Virus record (IMG/VR): IMGVR_UViG_3300031994_000047 | Span: 30,304 to 94,303 of that record | Length of the DNA: 64,000 bases | Direction: 5' to 3' (one strand) | Origin: a virus | Lineage: Duplodnaviria; Caudoviricetes | Shown: positions 23,675 through 63,265 of the stretch, in pieces | Numbering within the stretch: position 1 is the first letter of the stretch | Layout of the letters: each line of letters starts with the position of its first letter | Translations under genes and position numbers: made by a program | The notes under the pieces: model-generated | Database searches by the model: none | Seen by the model: the letters and a program-made list of their open reading frames with translations, nothing else | Told to the model about the DNA's origin: nothing

Positions 23675-26580
23675 TTATCCTCCTGTAAAGAATACTAATT
23701 GTCTATTTGAAGATTGTTGGCGTTTATACCTTTTTAGATTTTCTTCTTCGAGTTCTTTTATGCGCCAAAGCCCATATTCAAAAGCAGAAAATTTATCTTT
23801 AGGAAAACGAGAATTTATTTTCTCTAAGACAATATCCAAACCGCTTCTTTTAAGTCGAAGATTCGCCATTTCTTCAAAAAGACGAGTAGTCATTTCATGC
23901 GGCATTAATCGTTGAGTTCGTTGCTCGAAACTCATTTTTTGACCTATTTTTGTAGCGAGTAATCTCGCGCGCGCCTCTTGTTCTGTAATAAGAAATCTCA
24001 CCATGCCGCTATTTACTCTTGTGTAAGCATTACTATGGATTTTTGAGTTAAGTGGTCCATTTGCTTTTAAAGAGTATAAGATTTGAGGCGCTTCTTTTGG
24101 CTAAACTTTTTGGTAATCTTTACTATTAAAGAAACCAAGTGGAGCAAGTTCCTATCCTTTTTCATTGAATTGGGTTTGAATCATTTCATCTGCAAGACCT
24201 ACCAGTTACCTTCCGCGCGAGTCGTTAAGTCGCGCGCGTTCATATGAACTGCTATATATTTCTATATAGTTGAGACTATATCTTTATCTTTTATAAGATA
24301 TCCCCTATTTCGACTCACTTGAGCCTACGGTATAAAACCTAGTCGTTGAACATTATTTAAGATTGGAAGTAACTTCGCGCCACATTCTACCATTTTTAAT
24401 CTTACCGATTATATCTGGATGTACACCATATTCATTAGATAAATCTATATTCCGTTCACCATTATTTCCACGGATATAAATTTCTTTTACCTAATTTGGT
24501 GTTAGCTTTGCAGCGCCATTCACTTTTGCTCGTAATCCATTTTCCATGGCGTGATGAATATTTTCTTCACAAGTTACCCATTCAAGGTTATATAAACAAT
24601 TATTTGTTTTGTCTCCATCAATATGATTAACTTGAAGTTGATCCATGTTTGGGACTGGACAAAAATTTTCCATTATCAGACGATGCACTGAATAACGATG
24701 AACCTTCTTAGGCGGTAAATCAGTTGAACATAATGCAACCTTCATATATCCATCCTTATCTTTGGTTTGAGAAAGAAATTTATTGCTTCTTTCACTCCAA
24801 ATTCTGCCATCATCTGTTACATAATAATTGAATTTTAATGGATACTTACAAATAGTAATTAGTTTCTTTTCCATATATATACACCTCCAATAAAAGTGTT
24901 TTTATCTTAAATCTTTGCTGCTGATTGTCCATAAGGAGTTTCCAGCAATTAAAGGGATTTTACTTGAGCATTTAGTCTACCCAAGCCGTTGCAATCCATC
25001 ACGACTTCTCGCGGATTAAATCTCTCAATCAATGTTTTCAAATCTGCTGCTTGGCGCGCGAAAGTTTTAGTTTCTGCTTGGCGTCCAATAACATATAAAT
25101 TAACGAGCGTAGCATAGTATTTTCCATTTCGCACTATAACTTTAAAGATACAAACAACAGATTGGTCGTGTAATCTACCTACCAATACTTTCTATATGAC
25201 GCGTTAAGTCATATACGTTCTCTTATGAACTGCTATATGTTTCCATATAGATAAGACTATATCTTTATCTCATAGAGATATTTTCCATTTCGATCTACTT
25301 AGATCTACTTCCTCTCGGAATAGTCGTTGAGCCAGTTTATACTGGCGCGGATTGGCTATTTTTTGTAGTACTTAGGTTTACACCATATACCATCTTGATA
25401 TTTGTTTCTACTTTCGTAACGTCATAATCTGAGGAAGATTATTTTAGTATATCAAGCTTTAAGCGTTCCCCGCATTAAAGAAAATTTACGCACACCGATT
25501 ACTCGGTGTGGGGACATAAATTTTATCCACCGAAAATAAGTAAAAATAATCGCTATTCTATAAACTTTTTTGCTGCCATTCTGGATTAACAAGTTTTCGA
25601 TATTTTCCAATTTTATTAAAATCAAACCAAGATTCTTTACTTCCCCCATCCCAAATTCCTAAATACTCTGCCGCAAAAGTCTTTTCATCATAAGAAGGAG
25701 AAAGCTTTAAGTTCTATACATACTTTTTATCAATAAGTCCGTGCAAAACTGGAATACGATAATCTAGCCCCATACAGAAACTAGTTTTAGGACTTATAAT
25801 TGATTGTTCAAGTACATCTATAAGCGCCGCATATGCGTAAGAAGATTTCTATCCCGCAGATGTAGCATATATAACTTGTGTATTAATAGACTCGTTTTGG
25901 TTTATAAGTCCATTTTCCATTCTTCTAGACACGTTCATCTAAGGAAGAATGATTTCTGCTATTGCGTCACCGTCCTAATCGCGCGCTTCATCTATGAGCG
26001 TTGCGTGCGTTCTAATTCCTCTGTCGGAATCAAGCGCACCGACCACTGATAATTTACTTCCATTTTTGAAGTATAACTCAGCATAATCTTTTGAAAAGTT
26101 CGCGCGCGGCTCTCCACCATAAACTTCTAACTCATCTTTTAATAGAGGCCAAATGCGCCATATCTCTTGAACTTTTTGTTTTGTTATCTTTGAAGCCTAT
26201 GACTTGTTCGGCGCAACGATAGAGCCAACATGATGTGGCAAGAACATACACTAAAGATACTTCGCAAGTATTGCAAGAAATGTTTTTGATGTAGCACGCG
26301 CCGCAGTAATGTACACATTCGTATATCTCATGCAGGCGCGCAAGAATAATCTCTAATAAGGAAAAAGCTTAAAATTTGATTTTACTGGAGTAATGTGATC
26401 CAAATATATATCAGGATACACAGTATATAGACTCCACATATTCGTTAAGAAATCTTCGTGCTATTCGAGCCAAGTGGGAGTAAGTATAACTCCTTTTTCT
26501 ACCTCAACACCGTCGCGCAACACACGGTCGCGCGCATTAAAAGTCATTATAGGCTCGCGCAGTTTAATAGGTTCTGACAT
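23675..26580 (-). CDS. terL: Terminase large subunit, 3 exons (26580-25525, 25182-24979, 24202-23675), 595 aa (TAG=Gln)
   Basis: LFPY-Q-R Q-motif, AARATSKT Walker A, TLIDE Walker B, YATSAG coupling motif; nuclease motifs SVD|VGR, DCNGLG|VGLAD and KDKFSA. Exon lengths 1056/204/528 nt are all multiples of 3. Confidence 0.9.
24203..24978 (-). mobile_element. Group I intron 2 in terL (776 nt) with HNH homing endonuclease
   Basis: P1 CUUGGGU/GCUCAAG with U.G at the splice site; AAUUGCUGGAAA (P), GUUCAACGACUA (R), AAGAUAUAGUCU (S); GAAA-loop P9; terminal G. Confidence 0.9.
24353..24874 (-). CDS. Intron-encoded HNH homing endonuclease, 173 aa (one TAG=Gln)
   Basis: VHRLI...QVNHIDGDKTNNCLYNLEW; continues KLTPN-Q-VKEIY into an HTH-like tail ending at TAA 24353. 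Confidence 0.85.
25183..25524 (-). mobile_element. Group I intron 1 in terL (342 nt, no ORF)
   Basis: P1 UCGGUG-GAU / GUC..CACCGA; CUCAACGACUA (R), AAGAUAUAGUCU (S); CUAUAUG-GAAA-CAUAUAG P9; terminal G; removal restores SVD-VGR. Confidence 0.88.
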
Positions 26581-27590
26581 TATACACCCCCTATTGCTCC
26601 GCCGCCATCAAACTCTTCGTTTTCAAATTGCTCGAAACCTTCGTTATCGTATTTATCTTCATCAAATTCAAATTGAATGCCATATATATCAGAGCTTTCT
26701 GTTTGAACGCCTTCTTTTGAATTTTCTTCTTGAATTGCTTTGAGTCGGCGCGTAATCTCATCACCAATACCACCTTCGTTAATATAGAGTCGTTGGTTAT
26801 AGGATTGGATGTTTTTAATTGTCTCGTCTATAACGTCGCGAGTCGCGCCATCGTAGAATTGGTTTTCGCGCCCGCGCTTTTCGAGCCAAACCGCAAGTTC
26901 TCCGAAGGAACTAAAATCATTGTCGTCTTTTGAGTTCTTTGGATTAAATTCTGCGGTTTTTACGAGTTTGTCATAAGAGGATAAGAATTTATCGACATCT
27001 TTGCTACCCGCGCGAATTTGTGAGTCAATTTCAAGTGAGAGTTTGCAAATCTTTTGAGCTTGGTCGATTTGAAGTGCGCCGTTTATGTTTTGTGTTGCGA
27101 CTAAGCCTTTGTATAGGTCTTCGAGATAATCGAGTTGTTCAGGTGAGTAGTTTGCGCCCCATTTCTTTTGAAGATCTTTAACTCGTTTTTCATCGAGAAG
27201 TGGAATCTCATACTCTATTTGTGAAGCCTCTTTGAGCTTTTGATATTGATGAAAGTAATCGATCCACCCAAGAGATTTGTATTCGTCTCCGCTAAAGGTG
27301 CGCGCGTATGTAGCCCAAGTTTGCGCTGGCTATGTAAGTTCAGATATGCGTTCCCACTCTTTTACAATGAAAGGAATATCTGCCCACTAACAGACTTTGT
27401 CTATTGCTTCCCAAGAAAATTCATTTTCCCGCAAATAGTATGTAACACAAGAATTACAGAGAGGAATATGTCCATCTTTGTAGAAGTAGGAGTGAGTGGG
27501 CGCGAACTCTTCGATGTCAAAGGAGCGACCGCATTGGGCGCACGTTTTAAGGTGGGACTCACGCTCTGGAATTTTAGGGATTATGGGCAT
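26580..27590 (-). CDS. Zn-finger protein upstream of TerL, putative terminase small subunit, 336 aa (TAG=Gln)
   Basis: CAQC..CNSC N-terminus, KWGANY motif, acidic tail; TAATG-coupled to terL. Confidence 0.6.
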
Positions 27591-30905: not shown

Positions 30906-31277
30906 AAGGGTTATGACTTTATCACAATAAAGTGATAAAGTTATAATTTACTTCAAGTTAGTTATGACTAACTTTGTGCCCGGGCGTTCAGTTAGTTATA
31001 ACTAACTTTACAGTAGTTCGGGTTAGTCATGACTAACTTTCTATAATAAAATTGTGAATAAATTGTAAACAATTAAAAAAAGTATTGACTTTTCCTTTAA
31101 TATATGATATAATAGACTGGGGTAGAAGGGGAAGGTTGATCTGCGGTTAGTTATAACTAACTAATTCCAGAATTTTTGTTCATAAAAAATTCATAAAGAA
31201 ATTTTGCGAAAACTATTGACAAATCTGCCCGAGCGTGATATAATATACTCGTAAGATAAAGAAAGGAAGTCACAACA

Positions 31278-37443: not shown

Positions 37444-37650
37444 TCTGCGCTTCCCTCTCCGCGCGAGTTAGTCACAACTAACTGCGCGAGTATATTAGAC
37501 CTTTTAGGTCTAATACTATACCCGGGCAAATTATGAACATTTTGTAAACACTCAAAATCTTTTCAAAAACTATTGACACCGCGCGCAAAGTATGATATAA
37601 TATAGACACTAAAGGAGACGGACACTCCAAAAAACCAGAAAGAAAAACTT

Positions 37651-40039: not shown

Positions 40040-41500
40040 GGGCACAAATTTTTATCAAAGTCAAGTCTTTTATGTAACAAAATTTTAGATTTTGTGTAAC
40101 GAAATTTTGAACGAATTCACGGCACCAGAATTGCCAATTTTTGGCAATTCCCACGACTGCGTCAAAATTGCCAATTTTTACCAATGAGTGCCGTGTCAAA
40201 TTTTATCGGCGAAAAAATTTACCATTTTTTGGCAGCTGCAAGAGCTGCGAAAGCTACAGCTGCGTCGTGTCAAATTTTAGGAGCTACGACACAGCTGCAC
40301 AGAGCGCGCCGAAATTTTTAGGGGTTTTAAAATTTGACAGCTGCGTCAAATTCTGAGAGCTACGAAAGTTCCAGGAGCTACGAATTTTTAGAGCTACAAA
40401 AATTTGATAAGGAGTTGAAAGGAATTTTTGCTAGGCACATAATACTAGCAATATATTTCTAGCAATATAATTCTAGTAATATAATACTAGCAAAGCCTTG
40501 CTAGCCTAGCTCTGCTAACTTTTTCCTCTTCTTTCTCTCTTTTATTTCTTTCTAATTTTTTCTTTTATTTTTTCTTTAAATTTTTCTAATTTTTTTCTAA
40601 ATTTTTCTTTTTTTAATTTTAAAATCTTTACAAATTTGAAGTTTTTATTCTCTTTAATCTTAAAATTTCACATTATTTTTAAGGGACCCTCTGTCGTTAC
40701 ATCGGGTCCTATATCGAGCAGAAGTTCTCTACTGGCTTCTCTGAGCTAGCTCCTTTTCACCCAAATTTTTTCTCTCTTCCCTTCTCCTATTCTTTTCCTA
40801 TTTTCTCTTCTCACATAAACCCAAAAGCCCCTAAACTCTCAAATCTTCTATCTCCTCTTACGATCTCTTTTCGCGCGAACCCCATTTTCCCTCTCACTAC
40901 ACCTTCTTCCAATTTAATTCCTCTTAATCTTCTCCCCTTTCTCCCCTTCAATTTCTACCCCTTCTTCTCTTTTTTCCCTATACGCTACGAATTTCAATTT
41001 CTTTTTCCACCTCTACGCTACGAGTTTGCTTCGCAAACCCGTAGCTTAGCCACGCCATAAGTTCGCTTCGCGAACAGATGGCTAAGGGCGCACGAGTTTT
41101 GGCTCCGCCAAAACCCGCGCTATAGCCATCACTTCTTCTTCTCTTTCATTTTGTCTTTTAACGCGCCCAAGTTTTTGCTTCGCAAAAACCCGGTCGCTAA
41201 CCGATAAAGAAAAAAGAAAGGGTTTTAACCCTTTCCTCTATTATATATTATATTATATTTCTTGCTTACATCAAAATGTAAACTTTTGCTCACATTCTTC
41301 TAAAATTTTGGTGCATCTAATCTTTTGGAAAATTTTGAGCTTTCTTTTTCCCAATTTTTTTGACACAACTGCGCCCAAGGCATAAATTCCTTTGATGTAA
41401 TCCCAAAAACTCATAAAATTTCTAGAAAATTCTGGATTACATCCGCGCGCGAAGCATAAAATCCTTTGATGTAATCCCACAATTCTTAAAATCTATGAAG
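40040..41500. repeat. Non-coding convergence region with short direct repeats, an AT-rich tract and four hairpins (origin candidate)
   Basis: GCTACGA, TGCCAATTTTT, GTCAAATT, CTAGCAATA and CCTTTGATGTAATCCCA repeats; T-rich 40520-40680; GCTTCGC/GCTCCGC hairpins 41015-41200. Confidence 0.6.
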
Positions 41501-49287: not shown

Positions 49288-50520
49288 TTAATGTTTCAAT
49301 AGATATTCGCGACTGACATTCTTAAAGGATCTTTGTCCATCTTGGCTTCTATAAACCCATCCTTCGCGCGGACCAGAACCAACAATACAAGGACCATCTG
49401 CATCAAGCTTTAAAGTCTCCATATCATCAGGAAGTATGTACTGAGTATCAACGATAGGAACCCAAGAAATCCCAGCGAGTTCACAAATCTTCGATGCCTC
49501 AATGCTGCTAATGCGCCCGACGTCAGATCTAATAAAGTTATAACCAAAGAAGCACAGTTCTTTGAACTTATGTGGGTTGCCTTGAATAGAAGGACCGCAA
49601 ATTTCACCTTGCAAGCACACATAGTCCAAATCATGATTTAGCAGATATCCCTTTAAGAAGTCAAAGATATGATACTTATCTGCCATCATCCAATACACAT
49701 TTCCTTCAATCTCAGTATGATAGTTCTTCTGAGAAGGAGTCAACTGCCGCACATTACGAGAACAAACATACTGCTCAAACTTGCGCCGACCCTTGCGCGC
49801 GAGAATATAGGTTGAAGAAGTTCCATCGAGCTTTTGAGTCTTAACCCAAGGCTCTTTATCTTTTAAGAGCTCTGGGCAATTTTCTGCCCTCTCTTCATCA
49901 GTCGGTTTGACGAATGGAAACTGAGTCGGAAATTTCTTATTGTCTTTCTTCTTACTTCCAAAGAAGATAAACAAAAGCTTCCTACCCAAGTTATACTTCA
50001 TAAGCCAACGAAATACTGGCTTCTTAAAGAGCTTAGCGTGACGCGCTGCCATAGACTTATACTTATCTATACCCGAACCCTTGCGCGCGTTATCTTCAGC
50101 AGAAGCATAAGTTACACCCAATACATCAGTCAGAAATCTTGCTTCACTATTCAATACATCTGCGCCCGAAGCAAGGGCTAGCTGAAGAGTTGCCATCCAT
50201 ACTGGACATCTTCCTTCATTATCAACCCAAGCACTCAGCGGTATCAAAAGCCCCTGTGATACAACTCCTCTGATCTTCTGTGACTTAATCTTAAAGTTCT
50301 TTGAGCGCAAAAACTCCATAGCAGAAAAAGGAGGCTTATCAGGAATAAGAGAGTCAATTTCAAAATAGACCGCATAATCTCCAGCCTTAAACTCTCCCTT
50401 TCCTACGACACAATTCCAACCACCAACTCGCGCGCACTCAAGTCGATCGGCGTTCATAGGAAGAATTTCATCAACTTTCACTAGGTAAGCTAATTCTCTC
50501 TTTGAATCCTTATTTAACAT
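49288..50520 (-). CDS. RNA ligase, DRB0094/Rnl5-like, 410 aa
   Basis: N-terminal OB-like domain (ADRLE..YFEIDS..RGVVSQGL); KLDGTS motif I; QGE, EGWV, SFKNVS. Confidence 0.85.
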   Translation of the reverse strand: MLNKDSKRELAYLVKVDEILPMNADRLECARVGGWNCVVGKGEFKAGDYAVYFEIDSLIPDKPPFSAMEFLRSKNFKIKSQKIRGVVSQGLLIPLSAWVDNEGRCPVWMATLQLALASGADVLNSEARFLTDVLGVTYASAEDNARKGSGIDKYKSMAARHAKLFKKPVFRWLMKYNLGRKLLFIFFGSKKKDNKKFPTQFPFVKPTDEERAENCPELLKDKEPWVKTQKLDGTSSTYILARKGRRKFEQYVCSRNVRQLTPSQKNYHTEIEGNVYWMMADKYHIFDFLKGYLLNHDLDYVCLQGEICGPSIQGNPHKFKELCFFGYNFIRSDVGRISSIEASKICELAGISWVPIVDTQYILPDDMETLKLDADGPCIVGSGPREGWVYRSQDGQRSFKNVSREYLLKH

Positions 50521-59077: not shown

Positions 59078-59152
59078 TGGCGGCGGGCGACGGTGCCGCC
59101 CCGTCATCTTCGGTTTTAGAGACCGATGCATTTGCTGATATGCTAGCCCGCA
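59078..59152 (-). tRNA. Amber suppressor tRNA (anticodon CTA), probably Gln
   Basis: TCGGT-CTCTAAA-ACCGA anticodon arm; acceptor TGCGGGC/GCCCGCC-G-CCA (open first pair, G73); own promoter at about 59165-59208. Confidence 0.9.
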
Positions 59153-59469: not shown

Positions 59470-59545
59470 TGGAGCCCCCGTCGGGGTATGATCCCGAATC
59501 AGTAGATTACAAATCTACCACACTCTCCATTTGTGCTACAGGGGC
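59470..59545 (-). tRNA. tRNA-Thr(TGT)
   Basis: GTAGA-TTTGTAA-TCTAC, CCA. Confidence 0.85.
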
Positions 59546-59553
59546 AAATATCC

Positions 59554-59786
59554 GAGACACTTTTTTTAAAGCAGGAATACCTGACAGTCGGCGAACTAAA
59601 GCCAAAAATTGCTGGAAGTGTCTCTACAACATTAAAATAACCAAGGCGCCTTTTGGTAGCAGAAATTAAAAGTTTCTTCCAATTAAAAATTGCTGTAGGC
59701 GCCTTTTCATTAATCATAAATCAAGACGGCTAAATTAAATTCAATATCGGCGAATTTTTTCTAAAGAAGATTGCTGAAACCGTCTT
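59554..59786 (-). ncRNA. Three tandem stem-CAGCAAU elements (59723-59786, 59643-59705, 59554-59624)
   Basis: AAGACGG/CCGTCTT, AAGGCGCCT/AGGCGCCTT and GAGACACTT/AAGTGTCTC stems, each 5' strand followed by CAGCAAT. Confidence 0.7.
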
Positions 59787-59793
59787 TTAAAAC

Positions 59794-61350
59794 TTAAAGT
59801 TCAGTTACGACCTTATCGTATCTTTCGTCCATTAAAGCCGTAAGCATAACATTTATAGGATCAATAGTTTCCTTCTTTTGGATCTTTCCATTTTCCATAG
59901 TGTACTCAACAGTAGTTCCATCAATTACAGACTTAAACAAAGAAGGAGAATATCCGCTAACCATAGCGCAATTTTCACCATTAACAGTTTCTTGGAACAT
60001 ACCCTTATCGCTAGCTCTTACATTCCAATAAACAATCGCAGGCATAGTATATCCATAAGACTCATACTTAGCGCGCATTTGGCGCATAAAAGTCAAACCA
60101 GAATTACGAGTCTTAGTCTTTGCATAACGATTAGAAAAATCGTAGTAATACTCAGTGGTTGCCGCATCGAACTGCATATCAGAAATAATATACAACTTCT
60201 TAGGCATATCCTTATCCTTAAGGTGCGCGCTAACTGCGGTTTGGAGAATCAAATCAAATACTGCTTCGAGGTTAGTATTTGAATCCCAATTAGCTCGCTC
60301 CATATTCTGAACCTTAGAGTAAATATCTGCGCCAATAATGGACTGAAGCTGAGGTCTCGCAGAGAAGGTAATGAAATGCCCCTTAAAAGGTCCACGGCAC
60401 TTATCTGCGCAATACATACCAAGAGAAAGAGCAACTTCGATAGGAGTTCCACTCATAGATCCAGAAGTATCTACAACGCAGATTCCAGTCTCTTCTCTTC
60501 CCTCAAGATAATTAGGCAAAGACTTCCACATCTTATCAAGCATTTCTCGTGACAAAGTATCCCCGCTAGGAAGTCGAAGCGCCTGATGTACAATATCTAC
60601 AGGGAAGAGCGCAGTTGCATTTATCTTTCCAGTAGTCAAATAGCGAGAATATCTATTATAATCGTGACGTGCGAAAGCCTTACGATAGTTAAGATGTGCC
60701 TTGCCAGGGACGGTATCATACTTAATATCTTGCCATCTGTTCTTGCTCATCTTCTGCTCTACAATATTGATATGAGATCTAAGAGCAGAAAGAATCTTAC
60801 GATACTGACGAGGAGTCATCTTCAGATTAATTCTTATATCGCGCGCAATAGCACGGGTTCTAGGAGATGAAGTATTCTCAGAAGGAAGCCACTTAGCAAG
60901 AAGAGAAATAGACTTTCCATTTCTCATACCAGTCAAATCCTCATCAATCTGAGTTGCAATAAACTTATAGATAGACTGACGAGTTCTAGGTGCAAACGCA
61001 TACAAAAGATCATCACTGCGACCATATTCCAAAAAGTTAGGAAGGTTTGCGATTACATAGCGAGGATGAAATTCTGCTAGCCACTTAGAAATAACGCGGA
61101 AAACTCTACGCATACCCTGACCACCGCGGCAGTCTCTAATATAAAACCAGAGACGAAGCGCGAGGTCCTTATTTTCTTCAAAAGCCTTCTCAAAAGTAAG
61201 AGTAATCTGAGAATCGGGCGCATCCTTCATCGCGCCGAGACTTCCAAATGCGTCTAATACCGCATTATTGGTTGACTTCAGCGCGCCCGCGCCATTTTCA
61301 GTCTCAGTAAAGTTAAATTCGTTCTTAAGATTCTTCAAAAATTCATTCAT
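59794..61350 (-). CDS. Ro60/TROVE-like (DUF2828-type) protein with a C-terminal vWA domain, 518 aa, no TAG
   Basis: TENGA, RDCRGGQGMR, AKWLPSE, YRKILS.LR, VVDTSGSM (MIDAS), ISDMQFD, YWNV, SGYSP. Confidence 0.8.
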   Translation of the reverse strand: MNEFLKNLKNEFNFTETENGAGALKSTNNAVLDAFGSLGAMKDAPDSQITLTFEKAFEENKDLALRLWFYIRDCRGGQGMRRVFRVISKWLAEFHPRYVIANLPNFLEYGRSDDLLYAFAPRTRQSIYKFIATQIDEDLTGMRNGKSISLLAKWLPSENTSSPRTRAIARDIRINLKMTPRQYRKILSALRSHINIVEQKMSKNRWQDIKYDTVPGKAHLNYRKAFARHDYNRYSRYLTTGKINATALFPVDIVHQALRLPSGDTLSREMLDKMWKSLPNYLEGREETGICVVDTSGSMSGTPIEVALSLGMYCADKCRGPFKGHFITFSARPQLQSIIGADIYSKVQNMERANWDSNTNLEAVFDLILQTAVSAHLKDKDMPKKLYIISDMQFDAATTEYYYDFSNRYAKTKTRNSGLTFMRQMRAKYESYGYTMPAIVYWNVRASDKGMFQETVNGENCAMVSGYSPSLFKSVIDGTTVEYTMENGKIQKKETIDPINVMLTALMDERYDKVVTEL

Positions 61351-61361
61351 TTTTAATACCT

Positions 61362-61419
61362 AGACTCTCAAAAATAATATCCAAATTATTATTATAAAAA
61401 ATAATTGCTGTAAGAGTCT
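61362..61419 (-). promoter_or_regulatory. stem-CAGCAAU element in the 5' UTR of the TROVE-like gene
   Basis: AGACTCT-TA-CAGCAAT...AGAGTCT ends 11 nt before the ATG; promoter at about 61445-61482. Confidence 0.7.
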
Positions 61420-61485
61420 TTTATCCTTTCCTTTTTTTCTTTCTGTAAATATTATAACATAAATTTTAAAAGATTTCAAATTTTC

Positions 61486-61596
61486 AAGACACTATTTAGT
61501 GCTCTACCAACTGAGCTAAAACACAACTTTGTGTCTATGGGATTCGAACCCATAACCCCTGCATTCTGAGTGCAAAGTAATTGCTGTAAGTGTCTT
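61486..61596 (-). ncRNA. stem-CAGCAAU element containing a circularly permuted tRNA module (Y-RNA/YrlA-like)
   Basis: AAGACACT..AGTGTCTT closing stem; inside are an anticodon-like hairpin, T-arm ATGGG-TTCGAAT-CCCAT, capped acceptor AGACACA-AAGT-TGTGTTT and D-arm GCTC-AGTTGGTA-GAGC. Confidence 0.75.
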
Positions 61597-61672
61597 TGGT
61601 AGCGGCAGGGAGGGTTGAACTCACCTTTTTAGCGTTGAAGGCGCTATGTACTAACCGTTATACGATGCCGCC
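61597..61672 (-). tRNA. tRNA-Glu(TTC)
   Basis: TAGCG-CCTTCAA-CGCTA, CCA. Confidence 0.85.
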
Positions 61673-62227
61673 AGATTGTTTATTTGATCGTCTTTTATTA
61701 TTACAAGATATACATCTTTTAGCATTTTTTGTAATTACTTTTCCACAATCAATACAATAGTTTAGCGTATGCTCTTTATGCTATTTATTTTTACCATTTG
61801 TTGTATCCAGCTAATAATTACAATTAGGACAAACCCAACGAAGATTTTCTAATCTATCATCAGTGTTTTTCCCATTAATATGGTCTAAAATTAAAGTTAG
61901 CTCTTTATTGTTCCAAAATGGCAACTAGCCACAAATTGAACATTTATATTCCGAATAATTTCCTTTATAATACCATTCTCTTAAAGTTTTCTGAGCAGCG
62001 GTTGAGTTTTCTATAAATATATTTTCAACAGAGCGTTTAGTTGGATTTGTGTTTGAAGTAAAATGAGAAATAGATAAATTTAAAGATTGAATCCGTAATT
62101 TCAAATTAGCTAAAGTTTTACCTGAAAAAGAGTTGTAACCCAACTAAAGCAAACAATTCTTATAGCTTGTACTTTCCTATACAATTCTAGCAAATTCTTC
62201 ATCAGAATACTAACTTAAAATAGACAT
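61658..62227 (-). CDS. HNH endonuclease, 189 aa (TAG=Gln), stop codon inside tRNA-Glu
   Basis: CSICG, LDHINGKNTDDRLENLRWVCPNCNY-Q-LDT, second Zn finger CIDC..CISC. Confidence 0.85.
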
Positions 62228-63188: not shown

Positions 63189-63265
63189 TGGTGGCGCCTG
63201 TGGGACTCGAACCCACAAAACCACGCTTTTGAGGCGCGTATGTCTACCAGTTGCATCACGACGCC
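63189..63265 (-). tRNA. tRNA-Leu(CAA), short variable region
   Basis: CGCGC-CTCAAAA-GCGTG, Leu-type D arm, CCA. Confidence 0.8.

What the first reader, a model, noticed from the sequence alone, without database searches (positions are those of the whole stretch)
61486..61596. Circularly permuted tRNA nested in a CAGCAAU element
Seen, in 5'->3' order: anticodon-like hairpin (UGCA-CUCAGAA-UGCA), GGUU linker, canonical T-arm (AUGGG-UUCGAAU-CCCAU), a 7-bp acceptor-like stem capped by AAGU with no CCA, UA, then a canonical D-arm (GCUC-AGUUGGUA-GAGC). The RNA starts right after the CCA of tRNA-Glu, so tRNA processing would release it. Known: YrlA Y RNAs have the T-acceptor-D permuted module but replace the anticodon arm with the Ro stem. 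Inference: this RNA keeps an anticodon-like loop as well, so it could be an uncharged tRNA mimic or a decoy for anticodon nucleases.
Basis: partly seen in the sequence, partly recalled or inferred. Interest (0 to 1): 0.85.

Follow-up and report, generated by a model that had tools for sequence, protein, structure and literature searches.

The report
Scrambled-tRNA partner RNA of phage Ro-like protein
A rumen/gut phage encodes a small RNA that contains a whole tRNA in scrambled order, held shut by a conserved "handle". It is one of five handle-bearing RNAs around a gene for a Ro60-shaped protein, so it most likely belongs to a widespread, still undescribed phage relative of the Ro/Y-RNA particle.

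Summary
An 8-bp closing stem and a single-stranded ACAGCAA motif enclose an anticodon-like hairpin, a T arm, a capped acceptor hairpin and a D arm. The element starts one base after the CCA of tRNA-Glu.

It is not a decayed tRNA pair. My covariance model finds the same design in 23 relatives. 93% of cells are paired against 67% in shuffles, all 23 pairs show changes on both sides, and the tertiary 15-48 pair covaries.

Five handle RNAs flank a DUF2828 gene (59794-61350) on the same strand. The predicted fold of that protein matches Ro60 best (Z 12-16.5). In 80 related loci, handle motifs lie 165:6 on the gene's strand. They also occur in Felix O1-type, Tsamsa, A511 and cluster L phages.

Rfam YrlA scores 35 bits against a cut-off of 69, so this RNA works like YrlA but is not a member. 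The handle motif matches that of Dictyostelium Class I RNAs.

The canonical anticodon-like loop is unusual among scrambled members, and it varies in near relatives. The anticodon-nuclease decoy idea therefore stays speculative.

This scan found the same family before on other DNA. I found no paper that describes it. Protein binding and function are inferred, not shown.

The parts
61597..61672 (-). tRNA-Glu(UUC), ending in an encoded CCA directly upstream of the element
   Evidence: ARAGORN; Rfam tRNA 47.7 bits
61485..61596 (-). Handle RNA 1, the finding: closing stem, ACAGCAA motif and a circularly permuted, capped tRNA body, ending in a trailing G
   Evidence: Sequence; fold; model R1 99 bits; covariation in 23 relatives
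61589..61596 (-). Handle, 5' strand of the 8-bp closing stem
   Evidence: Pairs with 61486-61493. This helix is 94.5% paired in 68 distinct relatives, and all 8 pairs change on both sides
61581..61587 (-). Single-stranded ACAGCAA motif of the handle
   Evidence: Nearly invariant in alignment A2. Matches the consensus of Rfam Dicty_Class_I_RNA
61557..61577 (-). Anticodon-arm-like hairpin, 5-7 bp, loop CUCAGAA (61570-61564) with U33 and A37
   Evidence: The loop G at 61566 is A in near relatives
61537..61553 (-). T arm, 5 bp, loop UUCGAAU
   Evidence: T helix 98.3% paired, and all 5 pairs covary
61519..61536 (-). Acceptor-like 7-bp hairpin capped by AAGU, without CCA
   Evidence: All 6 modelled pairs change on both sides in relatives
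61501..61516 (-). D arm, 4 bp, loop AGUUGGUA, preceded by UA at 61518-61517
   Evidence: U8 and A14 are conserved, and the 15-48 pair covaries
61486..61493 (-). Handle, 3' strand of the closing stem, followed by the conserved G at 61485
61451..61479 (-). Sigma-70-like promoter (TTGAAA, 17 nt, TATAAT with TG; 11 of 12) between RNA 1 and RNA 2. Consensus match only
61360..61419 (-). Handle RNA 2: short cargo with a D-loop-like hairpin. It lies in the leader of the Ro-like gene, and its 3' strand abuts the ribosome-binding site
59794..61350 (-). 518-aa DUF2828 + DUF7788 protein, predicted to have a Ro60-like ring plus a vWA domain
   Evidence: Pfam and PHROG phrog_850; AF2 model pLDDT 81; Foldseek top 12 hits all Ro60; VIA-align Z 12.2-16.5 over about 400 residues
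59722..59785 (-). Handle RNA 3 (UCAGCAA variant of the motif)
59642..59704 (-). Handle RNA 4
   Evidence: 33.8 bits; z = -3.96
59553..59623 (-). Handle RNA 5 (CCAGCAA variant), 8 nt upstream of tRNA-Thr
59470..59545 (-). tRNA-Thr(UGU), which closes the unit

Best explanation
The element is a small non-coding RNA of a large, uncatalogued family of 'handle RNAs'. These accompany the Ro60-like DUF2828 protein of phages in the way Y RNAs accompany Ro60. Shown: a 7-9-bp stem joins the two ends of the RNA. It is followed by single-stranded ACAGCAA and closed by a 3' U-U/A-G. This handle is constant, while the enclosed cargo varies. Here the cargo is a complete tRNA body in permuted order, with its chain broken between positions 26 and 27 and its acceptor end capped. 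Covariation of all helices and of the tertiary 15-48 pair indicates that it folds into a tRNA-like L shape. Inferred: the RNA is co-transcribed with tRNA-Glu and released by the tRNA-processing enzymes. The handle binds the Ro-like protein encoded 135 nt downstream. The tRNA look-alike, which cannot be charged, is thereby displayed on the protein ring to engage a tRNA-binding factor. That factor could be a repair or modification enzyme, a nuclease, or a host defence protein. Which factor it is remains unknown.
For: Anatomy and fold. Family status: model R1 gives 69 hits at E <= 0.01 in 80 DUF2828 loci, all on the gene's strand. Of these, 23 are full scrambled members: 93.2% of cells are paired against 66.7% in shuffles (0 of 500 shuffles reach that), slid controls reach at most 44%, and 23 of 23 pairs change on both sides. 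The handle helix is 94.5% paired in 68 distinct sequences. The 15-48 pair is A-U in 12, G-C in 5, G-U in 4 and other in 2. Linkage to the protein: all five AGRY-type handles of the 94-kb genome lie within 2.1 kb around the gene, on its strand. In the related loci there are 165 plus-strand against 6 minus-strand handle motifs, and 64 of 80 loci hold at least one. Starting from the RNA motif alone, 13 of 33 closed handles have a DUF2828 gene in the same short locus, all on the same strand, at a median distance of 201 nt. Of nine further records searched, seven hold the gene elsewhere. Protein fold: Ro60 structures are the 12 best Foldseek hits and the 10 best VIA-align hits, at Z 12.2-16.5. Cultivated phages have the same scrambled-tRNA handle RNA beside the gene: wV8 (Felix O1 type), Tsamsa and Snenia. 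Published hints: Bas63 gp130 is described as Ro60-like and as a counter to the Ppl defence, and its authors guess that neighbouring 'tRNA genes' are Y RNAs (PMC11482910). Listeria phage CKA15_055 is Rsr-like by HHpred and is found in virions (PMC12282133). The same phage encodes an RNA ligase.
Against: No binding, expression or end-mapping data exist for this RNA. Contigs from an RNA library cover the locus without differences, but they cannot show transcription or RNA ends. The protein has no sequence-level match to any Ro60 in the PDB, and Pfam assigns DUF2828, not TROVE. The Ro likeness therefore rests on a predicted model with TM only 0.37-0.53. The handle does not resemble the Ro-binding helix of YrlA. 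The covariation alignment was fitted to the model, which favours pairing. My 'not closed' control for the motif-to-gene association was confounded: 5 of 10 such records also hold the gene.
Confidence: 0.62

Rival explanations
1. It is a real but permuted or split tRNA gene. The capped acceptor is opened by RNase P and 3' trimming with CCA addition. The handle helix holds the two pieces together or directs excision and ligation, and the product decodes CUG or UUG codons.
For: All four tRNA arms are present with canonical U8, A14, G18-G19, T loop, U33 and A37. The anticodon CAG is absent from the phage's own tRNA set. The 3' half is most like the phage's short tRNA(CAA), and near relatives have CAA instead of CAG. 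Some relatives (L026, L029, L031) carry ACCA in the acceptor cap and a Tyr-like anticodon arm. The phage encodes an RNA ligase. M. smegmatis YrlA is a substrate of RNase P and of the CCA-adding enzyme in vitro (PMC4201824).
Against: The closing helix is an uninterrupted 8-bp stem with no bulge-helix-bulge. The same handle encloses many cargos with no tRNA features at all, including four in this window. In most scrambled relatives the hairpin at the anticodon position has a loop that is not 7 nt. No bacterial or phage pathway for permuted tRNAs is known to me (own knowledge).
Confidence: 0.05
2. It is a decoy. The displayed anticodon-like arm, with or without the Ro-like protein, soaks up a tRNA-cleaving or tRNA-sensing host defence protein.
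For: The tRNA body cannot be charged. The loop geometry is canonical (5 bp, 7 nt, U33, A37). The loop differs by one base from that of the phage's own tRNA(CAA), and in near relatives it is identical. Eight normal-order cargos in relatives carry true anticodon loops with U33 and A37. The Felix O1-type homologue of the protein is reported to counter a defence system (PMC11482910).
Against: Most scrambled relatives lack an anticodon-like loop, and many handle RNAs have no tRNA-like cargo. The one defence system linked to the protein so far, Ppl, is proposed by its authors to degrade DNA, not tRNA. Nothing here identifies a target.
Confidence: 0.15
3. The handles are cis-acting signals rather than parts of stable RNAs. 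They could be processing sites for the tRNA operon, or operators through which the Ro-like protein controls its own mRNA. In that case the tRNA-like cargo is incidental.
For: Handle RNAs sit between tRNA genes, 0-8 nt from them. RNA 2 lies between a strong promoter-like site and the ribosome-binding site of the gene.
Against: The cargo helices and a tertiary pair covary, so the cargo fold is under selection. The motif is the same in phages of Gram-positive, Gram-negative and actinobacterial hosts, which points to a phage-encoded partner rather than host RNases. Autoregulation through RNA 2 is compatible with the main explanation.
Confidence: 0.1
4. It is a pseudogene: a chance fusion of the 3' half and the 5' half of two neighbouring, decayed tRNA genes.
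For: Tandem identical tRNA genes with a short spacer would give exactly this order of arms. Rfam tRNA gives two partial sub-threshold hits.
Against: Covariation is seen in every helix across 23 relatives. The element has no close paralogue among the phage's 14 tRNAs. The design is conserved in phages of unrelated hosts.
Confidence: 0.02

Closest known systems
YrlA-type bacterial and phage Y RNAs with Ro60/Rsr (Rfam RF02553; Chen et al. 2014, PMC4201824)
   Same: Both have a T arm, a capped acceptor-like hairpin and a D arm in permuted order, with 15-48 covariation. Both are enclosed by a terminal stem. Both are encoded on the same strand next to a ring-plus-vWA RNA-binding protein, and both occur as several paralogous RNAs per locus.
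   Different: The score is 35.4 bits against the cut-off of 69, and the outer YrlA helices are not matched. The terminal module is a different conserved handle (stem plus ACAGCAA). The D arm is joined to it by a 7-14-nt linker rather than a continuous stem. A separate hairpin occupies the anticodon-arm position. The neighbouring protein is DUF2828, not a Pfam TROVE protein.
Thermus phage phiLo Ro60 with Yrl1 and Yrl2 (PMC12135203; PDB 9KOP, 9L5Y)
   Same: A phage-encoded Ro60-type ring with phage-encoded partner RNAs upstream of its gene. It is the best Foldseek match of the model.
   Different: phiLo Ro60 is a canonical Ro60 homologue. Its Yrl RNAs are described as stem-bulge-stem with a CGAA motif, not as an ACAGCAA handle with tRNA cargo.
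Dictyostelid Class I RNAs (Rfam RF01414; Kjellin et al. 2021, PMC7919456)
   Same: A short stem joins the 5' and 3' ends. It is followed directly by a single-stranded 11-nt motif whose Rfam consensus contains CUUACAGCAAU, identical to the window's RNAs 1 and 2. Both start with AAG, have a conserved 3' tail after the stem, and carry variable cargo.
   Different: Class I RNAs are eukaryotic, 42-65 nt long, driven by the DUSE promoter, end in CUGU, and are reported as unique to Dictyostelia with an RRM protein partner. The score here is only 14.6 bits against 41.5. I did not test whether dictyostelids encode DUF2828 proteins.
Circularly permuted tRNA genes of Cyanidioschyzon merolae and split tRNAs of Nanoarchaeum (own knowledge; reviews listed)
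   Same: The 3' half is encoded upstream of the 5' half, and a helix brings the outer ends together.
   Different: Those genes are matured through bulge-helix-bulge cleavage and ligation into ordinary tRNAs. Here the helix has no such motif, the acceptor is capped by 4 nt without CCA, and the same helix frames non-tRNA cargos.

Membership tests
YrlA (Rfam RF02553) | Score at or above the curated gathering threshold (69 bits) | tested here: not met
   35.4 bits for window 61469-61582. The Snenia homologue scores 39.3 bits.
YrlA (Rfam RF02553) | Permuted tRNA-like module (T arm, acceptor-like hairpin, D arm) with R15-Y48 covariation | tested here: met
YrlA (Rfam RF02553) | Outer helices, that is the Ro-binding stem of the consensus | tested here: not met
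   The outer helices are marked as non-standard pairs in the cmscan alignment. A different closing stem forms instead.
YrlA (Rfam RF02553) | Encoded within about 4 kb and on the same strand as a TROVE-domain Ro60 orthologue | tested here: inconclusive
   The neighbour lies 135 nt away on the same strand. Pfam gives DUF2828 + DUF7788, not TROVE, and there is no PDB sequence hit. The predicted fold does match Ro60, at Z up to 16.5.
YrlA (Rfam RF02553) | [quoted passage not shown] | not testable with these tools
   Needs biochemistry.
DUF2828-associated 'handle RNAs' (uncatalogued; defined here and in earlier notes of this scan) | A 7-9-bp covarying stem joining the 5' and 3' ends | tested here: met
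   8 bp here. 94.5% paired across 68 relatives.
DUF2828-associated 'handle RNAs' (uncatalogued; defined here and in earlier notes of this scan) | Single-stranded ACAGCAA 1-3 nt after the 5' strand, and a conserved G 1-2 nt after the 3' strand | tested here: met
DUF2828-associated 'handle RNAs' (uncatalogued; defined here and in earlier notes of this scan) | Same strand as, and close to, a DUF2828 gene | tested here: met
Dictyostelid Class I RNA (Rfam RF01414) | An 11-nt motif adjacent to the 5' strand of a short terminal stem | tested here: met
   10 of 11 positions match for RNA 1, and 13 consecutive consensus bases match for RNA 2.
Dictyostelid Class I RNA (Rfam RF01414) | Gathering score of 41.5 bits, length 42-65 nt, CUGU 3' end, dictyostelid origin with DUSE promoter | tested here: not met
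   14.6 bits for RNA 2 and no hit for RNA 1. RNA 1 is 112 nt long and ends in CUUG. The source is a phage record.
Canonical tRNA | Called by ARAGORN, or Rfam tRNA at 29 bits or more | tested here: not met
   Not called by ARAGORN. Partial Rfam hits of 21.2 and 17.8 bits.
Permuted tRNA genes (C. merolae type) | Bulge-helix-bulge at the junction of the outer ends | tested here: not met
   The closing helix is an uninterrupted 8-bp stem.
Permuted tRNA genes (C. merolae type) | Maturation into a contiguous tRNA that can be aminoacylated | not testable with these tools
   Needs RNA end mapping and charging assays.

The most novel reading that the evidence does not exclude
Handle RNAs and the DUF2828 ring form an ancient, modular RNA-protein particle. 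Its handle is shared with the unexplained Class I RNAs of Dictyostelium. Its exchangeable cargos, among them complete scrambled tRNAs with anticodon arms such as this one, are displayed as baits that neutralise or redirect tRNA-directed host immunity or RNA-repair enzymes during infection.
Probability: 0.1. Interest if true: 0.9.

Novelty: new variant of a known kind. Interest (0 to 1): 0.7.

Why it matters
Ro60 and Y RNAs are a classic but still poorly understood RNA-protein particle. This locus belongs to a second, much more widespread phage version. It has a different protein family and a different, sharply defined RNA handle, and it occurs in model phages (Felix O1/Bas63, A511/P100, Tsamsa, cluster L mycobacteriophages) where it can be tested at once.

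Two published puzzles would be connected by it. One is the Ro60-like Bas63 gp130, which counters the Ppl defence. The other is the Rsr-like virion protein of Listeria phage CKA15 and its abundant unexplained RNAs.

The identity of the handle motif with that of Dictyostelium Class I RNAs offers a testable lead for RNAs that have had no known mechanism for twenty years.

This member is the clearest case I saw of a complete tRNA, anticodon arm included, rebuilt in permuted order on the handle. That makes it a good construct for structure work and for partner fishing.

Tried and rejected
- A blastn search of the locus against GenBank phages found nothing.
- A single-protein scan of IMG/VR found no relative. 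An alignment was needed.
- The contig of the 94%-identical protein P0001 could not be fetched.
- A profile search of PDB sequences found no Ro60. Only the fold comparison did.
- MAFFT alignments of the RNAs were not consistent with the structure, so I used a covariance model.
- Reads: only Logan contigs were available. An RNA-library contig spans 60505-61800 with no differences, but this shows neither transcription nor RNA ends.
- My control for the reverse association failed. Pattern matches without an exact 3' complement were meant as chance matches, yet 5 of 10 of their records also hold the gene. Many are probably real handles with imperfect stems.
- The supplement of Chen et al. 2014 is not held. 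I cannot say whether any DUF2828 phage RNA was in their list of 22 phages.
- The most highly transcribed region of CKA15 (26,236-26,727) maps onto the ROOL-like RNA of A511-type phages, not onto the handles. It therefore gives no direct expression evidence for handle RNAs.
- The ESM Atlas search gave only DUF2828 clusters and nothing on eukaryotes.
- RtcB was not found in the genome. The T4 Rnl1 search was uninformative, because its control rang nowhere.
- The exact handle motif occurs no more often in the window than in shuffles when 2 mismatches are allowed. Only the motif together with a closing stem is specific.
- I rejected promoter, terminator and mobile-element readings of the repeat. 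The stems covary, the strand bias is 165:6, and there is no U tract.

Full report
WHAT IS THERE. The window is the last 64 kb of a 94.3-kb IMG/VR virus record that is about 76% complete. DNA and RNA libraries from sheep and cattle gut and rumen hold near-identical sequence.

The feature lies on the minus strand. Read 5' to 3', tRNA-Glu(UUC) ends with CCA at 61597. The next base starts an 8-bp stem, 61596-61589 paired with 61493-61486. This stem encloses, in order:
- a single-stranded stretch containing ACAGCAA (61587-61581);
- a hairpin of 5-7 bp with the 7-nt loop CUCAGAA;
- a 5-nt linker;
- a textbook T arm;
- a 7-bp hairpin capped by AAGU, in the place of the acceptor stem;
- UA;
- a textbook D arm;
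- a 7-nt linker.

A conserved G (61485) follows the stem. The MFE structure is exactly this five-way junction (-33.9 kcal/mol, z = -3.05, 0 of 200 shuffles as good). The RNA is a tRNA whose chain is broken between positions 26 and 27 and whose acceptor end is closed. ARAGORN does not call it. Rfam gives only YrlA at 35.4 bits (cut-off 69) and two partial tRNA hits.

IT IS A FAMILY, NOT A WRECK. The gene 135 nt downstream (59794-61350) encodes a 518-aa DUF2828 + DUF7788 protein, PHROG 'RNA-binding protein'. Using an alignment of its relatives I fetched 80 IMG/VR loci. A simple scan, and then a covariance model built from five sequences, found the same design repeatedly.
- There are 69 hits at E <= 0.01, every one on the strand of the DUF2828 gene.
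- 23 of them are full scrambled-tRNA members.
- On these, 93.2% of cells pair against 66.7% in column shuffles (0 of 500 shuffles reach that). Slid controls give 36-44%. All 23 pairs show changes on both sides.
- The alignment was fitted to the model, which favours pairing. However, the acceptor and T stems have quite different sequences in different loci.
- The tertiary 15-48 pair is A-U in 12, G-C in 5, G-U in 4 and other in 2. This is the same signature reported for YrlA (PMC4201824).
- The element has no close paralogue among the phage's own 14 tRNAs.

The 'decayed tandem tRNA' alternative is therefore rejected.

THE HANDLE. It consists of a 7-9-bp stem joining the ends (usually AGAC/GUCU or AGGC/GCCU at its base, with freely covarying inner pairs), then 1-3 nt, then ACAGCAA, and after the 3' strand U-U/A-G. 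Across 68 distinct sequences this helix is 94.5% paired, and each of its 8 pairs changes on both sides.

The cargo between the handle strands is exchangeable:
- short hairpins, often D-loop-like;
- tRNA bodies in normal order, in which the handle stands in for the acceptor stem;
- scrambled tRNA bodies like this one.

The 94-kb genome has five such RNAs, all within 2.1 kb around the DUF2828 gene and on its strand: 61485-61596, 61360-61419, 59722-59785, 59642-59704 and 59553-59623. The last ends 8 nt before tRNA-Thr. The best sigma-70-like site of the region (11 of 12, with TG) lies between RNA 1 and RNA 2. RNA 1 would then belong to the tRNA-Glu transcript and RNA 2 to the leader of the protein's mRNA. 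This rests on a consensus match only.

LINK TO THE PROTEIN. In the 80 loci a stricter handle scan gives 165 matches on the gene's strand and 6 on the other, and 64 loci have at least one.

Going the other way, I scanned IMG/VR for a 14-base handle pattern. Of 33 matches whose stem closes, 13 have a DUF2828 gene within the short fetched locus, all 13 on the same strand, at a median distance of 201 nt. Only 2 of 50 non-closing matches do. Of nine closing matches without the gene in the locus whose records could be searched (a tenth record was not held), seven have it elsewhere in the record. The non-closing class proved a poor control at record level, since 5 of 10 such records hold the gene. 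It probably contains real handles with imperfect stems.

THE PROTEIN IS RO60-SHAPED. An AlphaFold2 model from 35 sequences has pLDDT 81 and pTM 0.79. Its 12 best Foldseek matches in the PDB are all Ro60: Thermus phage phiLo, Xenopus, human and Deinococcus Rsr (E from 2.6e-7, TM 0.37-0.53). VIA-align gives Z 12.2-16.5 over 373-411 residues covering both ring and vWA domain. The next rows, which match the vWA domain alone, stay at or below 9.7. A sequence profile finds no Ro60 in the PDB, and Pfam does not call TROVE. This is therefore a fold-level likeness based on a prediction.

CULTIVATED PHAGES AND LITERATURE. The protein has homologues in 700 GenBank phage records. Handle RNAs, including a scrambled-tRNA member, lie beside it in three of the four cultivated phages I examined:
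- Bacillus phage Tsamsa, just after its tRNA-Glu;
- Felix O1-type phage wV8, between annotated tRNAs;
- cluster L mycobacteriophage Snenia.

Listeria phage A511 has three short handles just upstream of the gene. The Snenia RNA also stays below the YrlA threshold, at 39.3 bits.

I found no paper that describes the handle or these RNAs. Three papers touch the protein:
- A preprint reports that Bas63 gp130 resembles Ro60, counters the Ppl defence, and lies upstream of tRNA genes 'possibly Y RNAs' (PMC11482910).
- Listeria phage CKA15_055 is Rsr-like by HHpred, is present in virions, and lies downstream of three very highly transcribed regions guessed to be Y RNAs (PMC12282133). The strongest of these maps to a ROOL-like RNA, not to the handles.
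- LeBron gp53, annotated 'Ro-like', is toxic when over-expressed (PMC13148394).

The canonical phage case, phiLo Ro60 with Yrl1 and Yrl2, has different RNAs (PMC12135203).

THE CLASS I RNA LIKENESS. The consensus of Rfam's Dicty_Class_I_RNA contains CUUACAGCAAU directly after its terminal stem. RNA 2 of the window matches 13 consecutive consensus bases, and RNA 1 matches 10 of the 11 motif positions. The published description of Class I RNAs fits the handle design: a short stem joining the ends, an adjacent 11-nt unpaired motif with T, C, C, A, A fixed at positions 3, 6, 9, 10 and 11, a start with AAG, a conserved tail after the stem, and a variable remainder (PMC7919456). The score is far below threshold (14.6 against 41.5 bits), and those RNAs are reported as unique to Dictyostelia. 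I treat this as a shared design and a lead, not as membership.

THE ANTICODON-LIKE ARM. A hairpin at the anticodon-arm position is common in the scrambled class, but its loop has 3 to 9 nt. Among 28 distinct T-arm cargos, ten have a canonical 5-bp/7-nt hairpin 3-6 nt before the T stem, all ten with U33 and A37. Eight of the ten are normal-order cargos. Of the scrambled ones only the window's qualifies cleanly. The L026 group also has an anticodon arm, but with a long variable region that this test could not see.

Contigs from two other DNA runs, about 99% identical in this stretch, carry A instead of G at 61566. This changes the 'anticodon' CAG to CAA. The loop then equals that of the phage's own unusually short tRNA(CAA), whose 3' half is also the best match to the element's 3' half. 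This is suggestive of mimicry of one particular tRNA, but it could be coincidence. Nothing here identifies a nuclease or any other target.

HOW IT MOST LIKELY WORKS. Shown:
- the fold is under selection;
- the handle is conserved;
- the RNAs are physically and directionally linked to a Ro60-shaped protein gene in many unrelated phages.

Inferred:
- RNA 1 is released from the tRNA-Glu transcript by tRNA-processing enzymes;
- the handle is the binding site of the protein;
- the tRNA look-alike, which cannot be charged, is a displayed module that engages a tRNA-binding factor. This is analogous to Y RNAs tethering Ro60 to PNPase (PMC4201824; PMC12135203).

The phage also encodes an RNA ligase (49288-50520), which fits an RNA-damage or RNA-repair setting.

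The rivals are a functional split tRNA, a pure decoy, a cis-acting signal and a pseudogene. They are weighed in their own sections.

STANDING. The RNA works like YrlA but fails its membership test. It belongs to an uncatalogued family with its own handle and its own protein family. This scan has met the same family many times before on other DNA. I re-derived the main points independently here. I rate it a new variant of a known kind, the Ro/Y-RNA-type particle with tRNA mimicry.

Noticed in passing
window 63189-63265 (-): The tRNA called Leu(CAA) is only 77 nt long with a short variable region, unlike the two other Leu tRNAs (84 and 85 nt) and unlike bacterial Leu tRNAs in general. Its anticodon loop differs by one base from the hairpin loop of RNA 1.
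   Followed up: partly
window 25233-25534 (-): A group I intron (Rfam RF00028, 70 bits against a cut-off of 50).
   Followed up: no
window 59081-59152 (-): A tRNA found by Rfam (38.1 bits) but not by ARAGORN.
   Followed up: no
window 49288-50520 (-): A 410-aa RNA ligase (PHA02142 OB fold + RNA_ligase; phrog_968), flanked by an HNH endonuclease and an isochorismatase-family gene.
   Followed up: partly
window 61925-62143 (-): A short ORF with weak GIY-YIG/HNH endonuclease similarity between tRNA-Glu and tRNA-Lys. It may be a remnant of a homing endonuclease in the tRNA array.
   Followed up: no
window 31201-31260 and 37557-37620 (+): Two near-identical promoter-like blocks (ACTATTGACA, about 17 nt, GATATAATATA) upstream of short ORFs. 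They are probably a conserved class of phage promoters.
   Followed up: no
window 40241-40514 (+): A dense cluster of short direct repeats (AGCTACGA- and ACAGCTGC-type words, then repeated CTAGCAATATA units). It looks like an iteron or origin region.
   Followed up: no
L086:1507-2058 (Listeria phage A511): A ROOL-like RNA just below Rfam's threshold (87.5 against 99.1 bits), about 950 nt upstream of the DUF2828 gene. By coordinates it corresponds to the most highly transcribed region reported for phage CKA15 (26,236-26,727).
   Followed up: partly
L026, L029, L031: about 2309-2444: A scrambled-tRNA handle RNA with a Tyr-like anticodon arm (loop CUGUAAA), a long variable region, and ACCA inside the acceptor cap. 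It looks like the 3' half plus the 5' half of a complete tRNA-Tyr.
   Followed up: no
L017:1063-1190: A variant in which an anticodon arm (loop CUUCUAA) follows the D arm while another hairpin precedes the T arm. The chain break therefore lies at a different position of the tRNA body.
   Followed up: no
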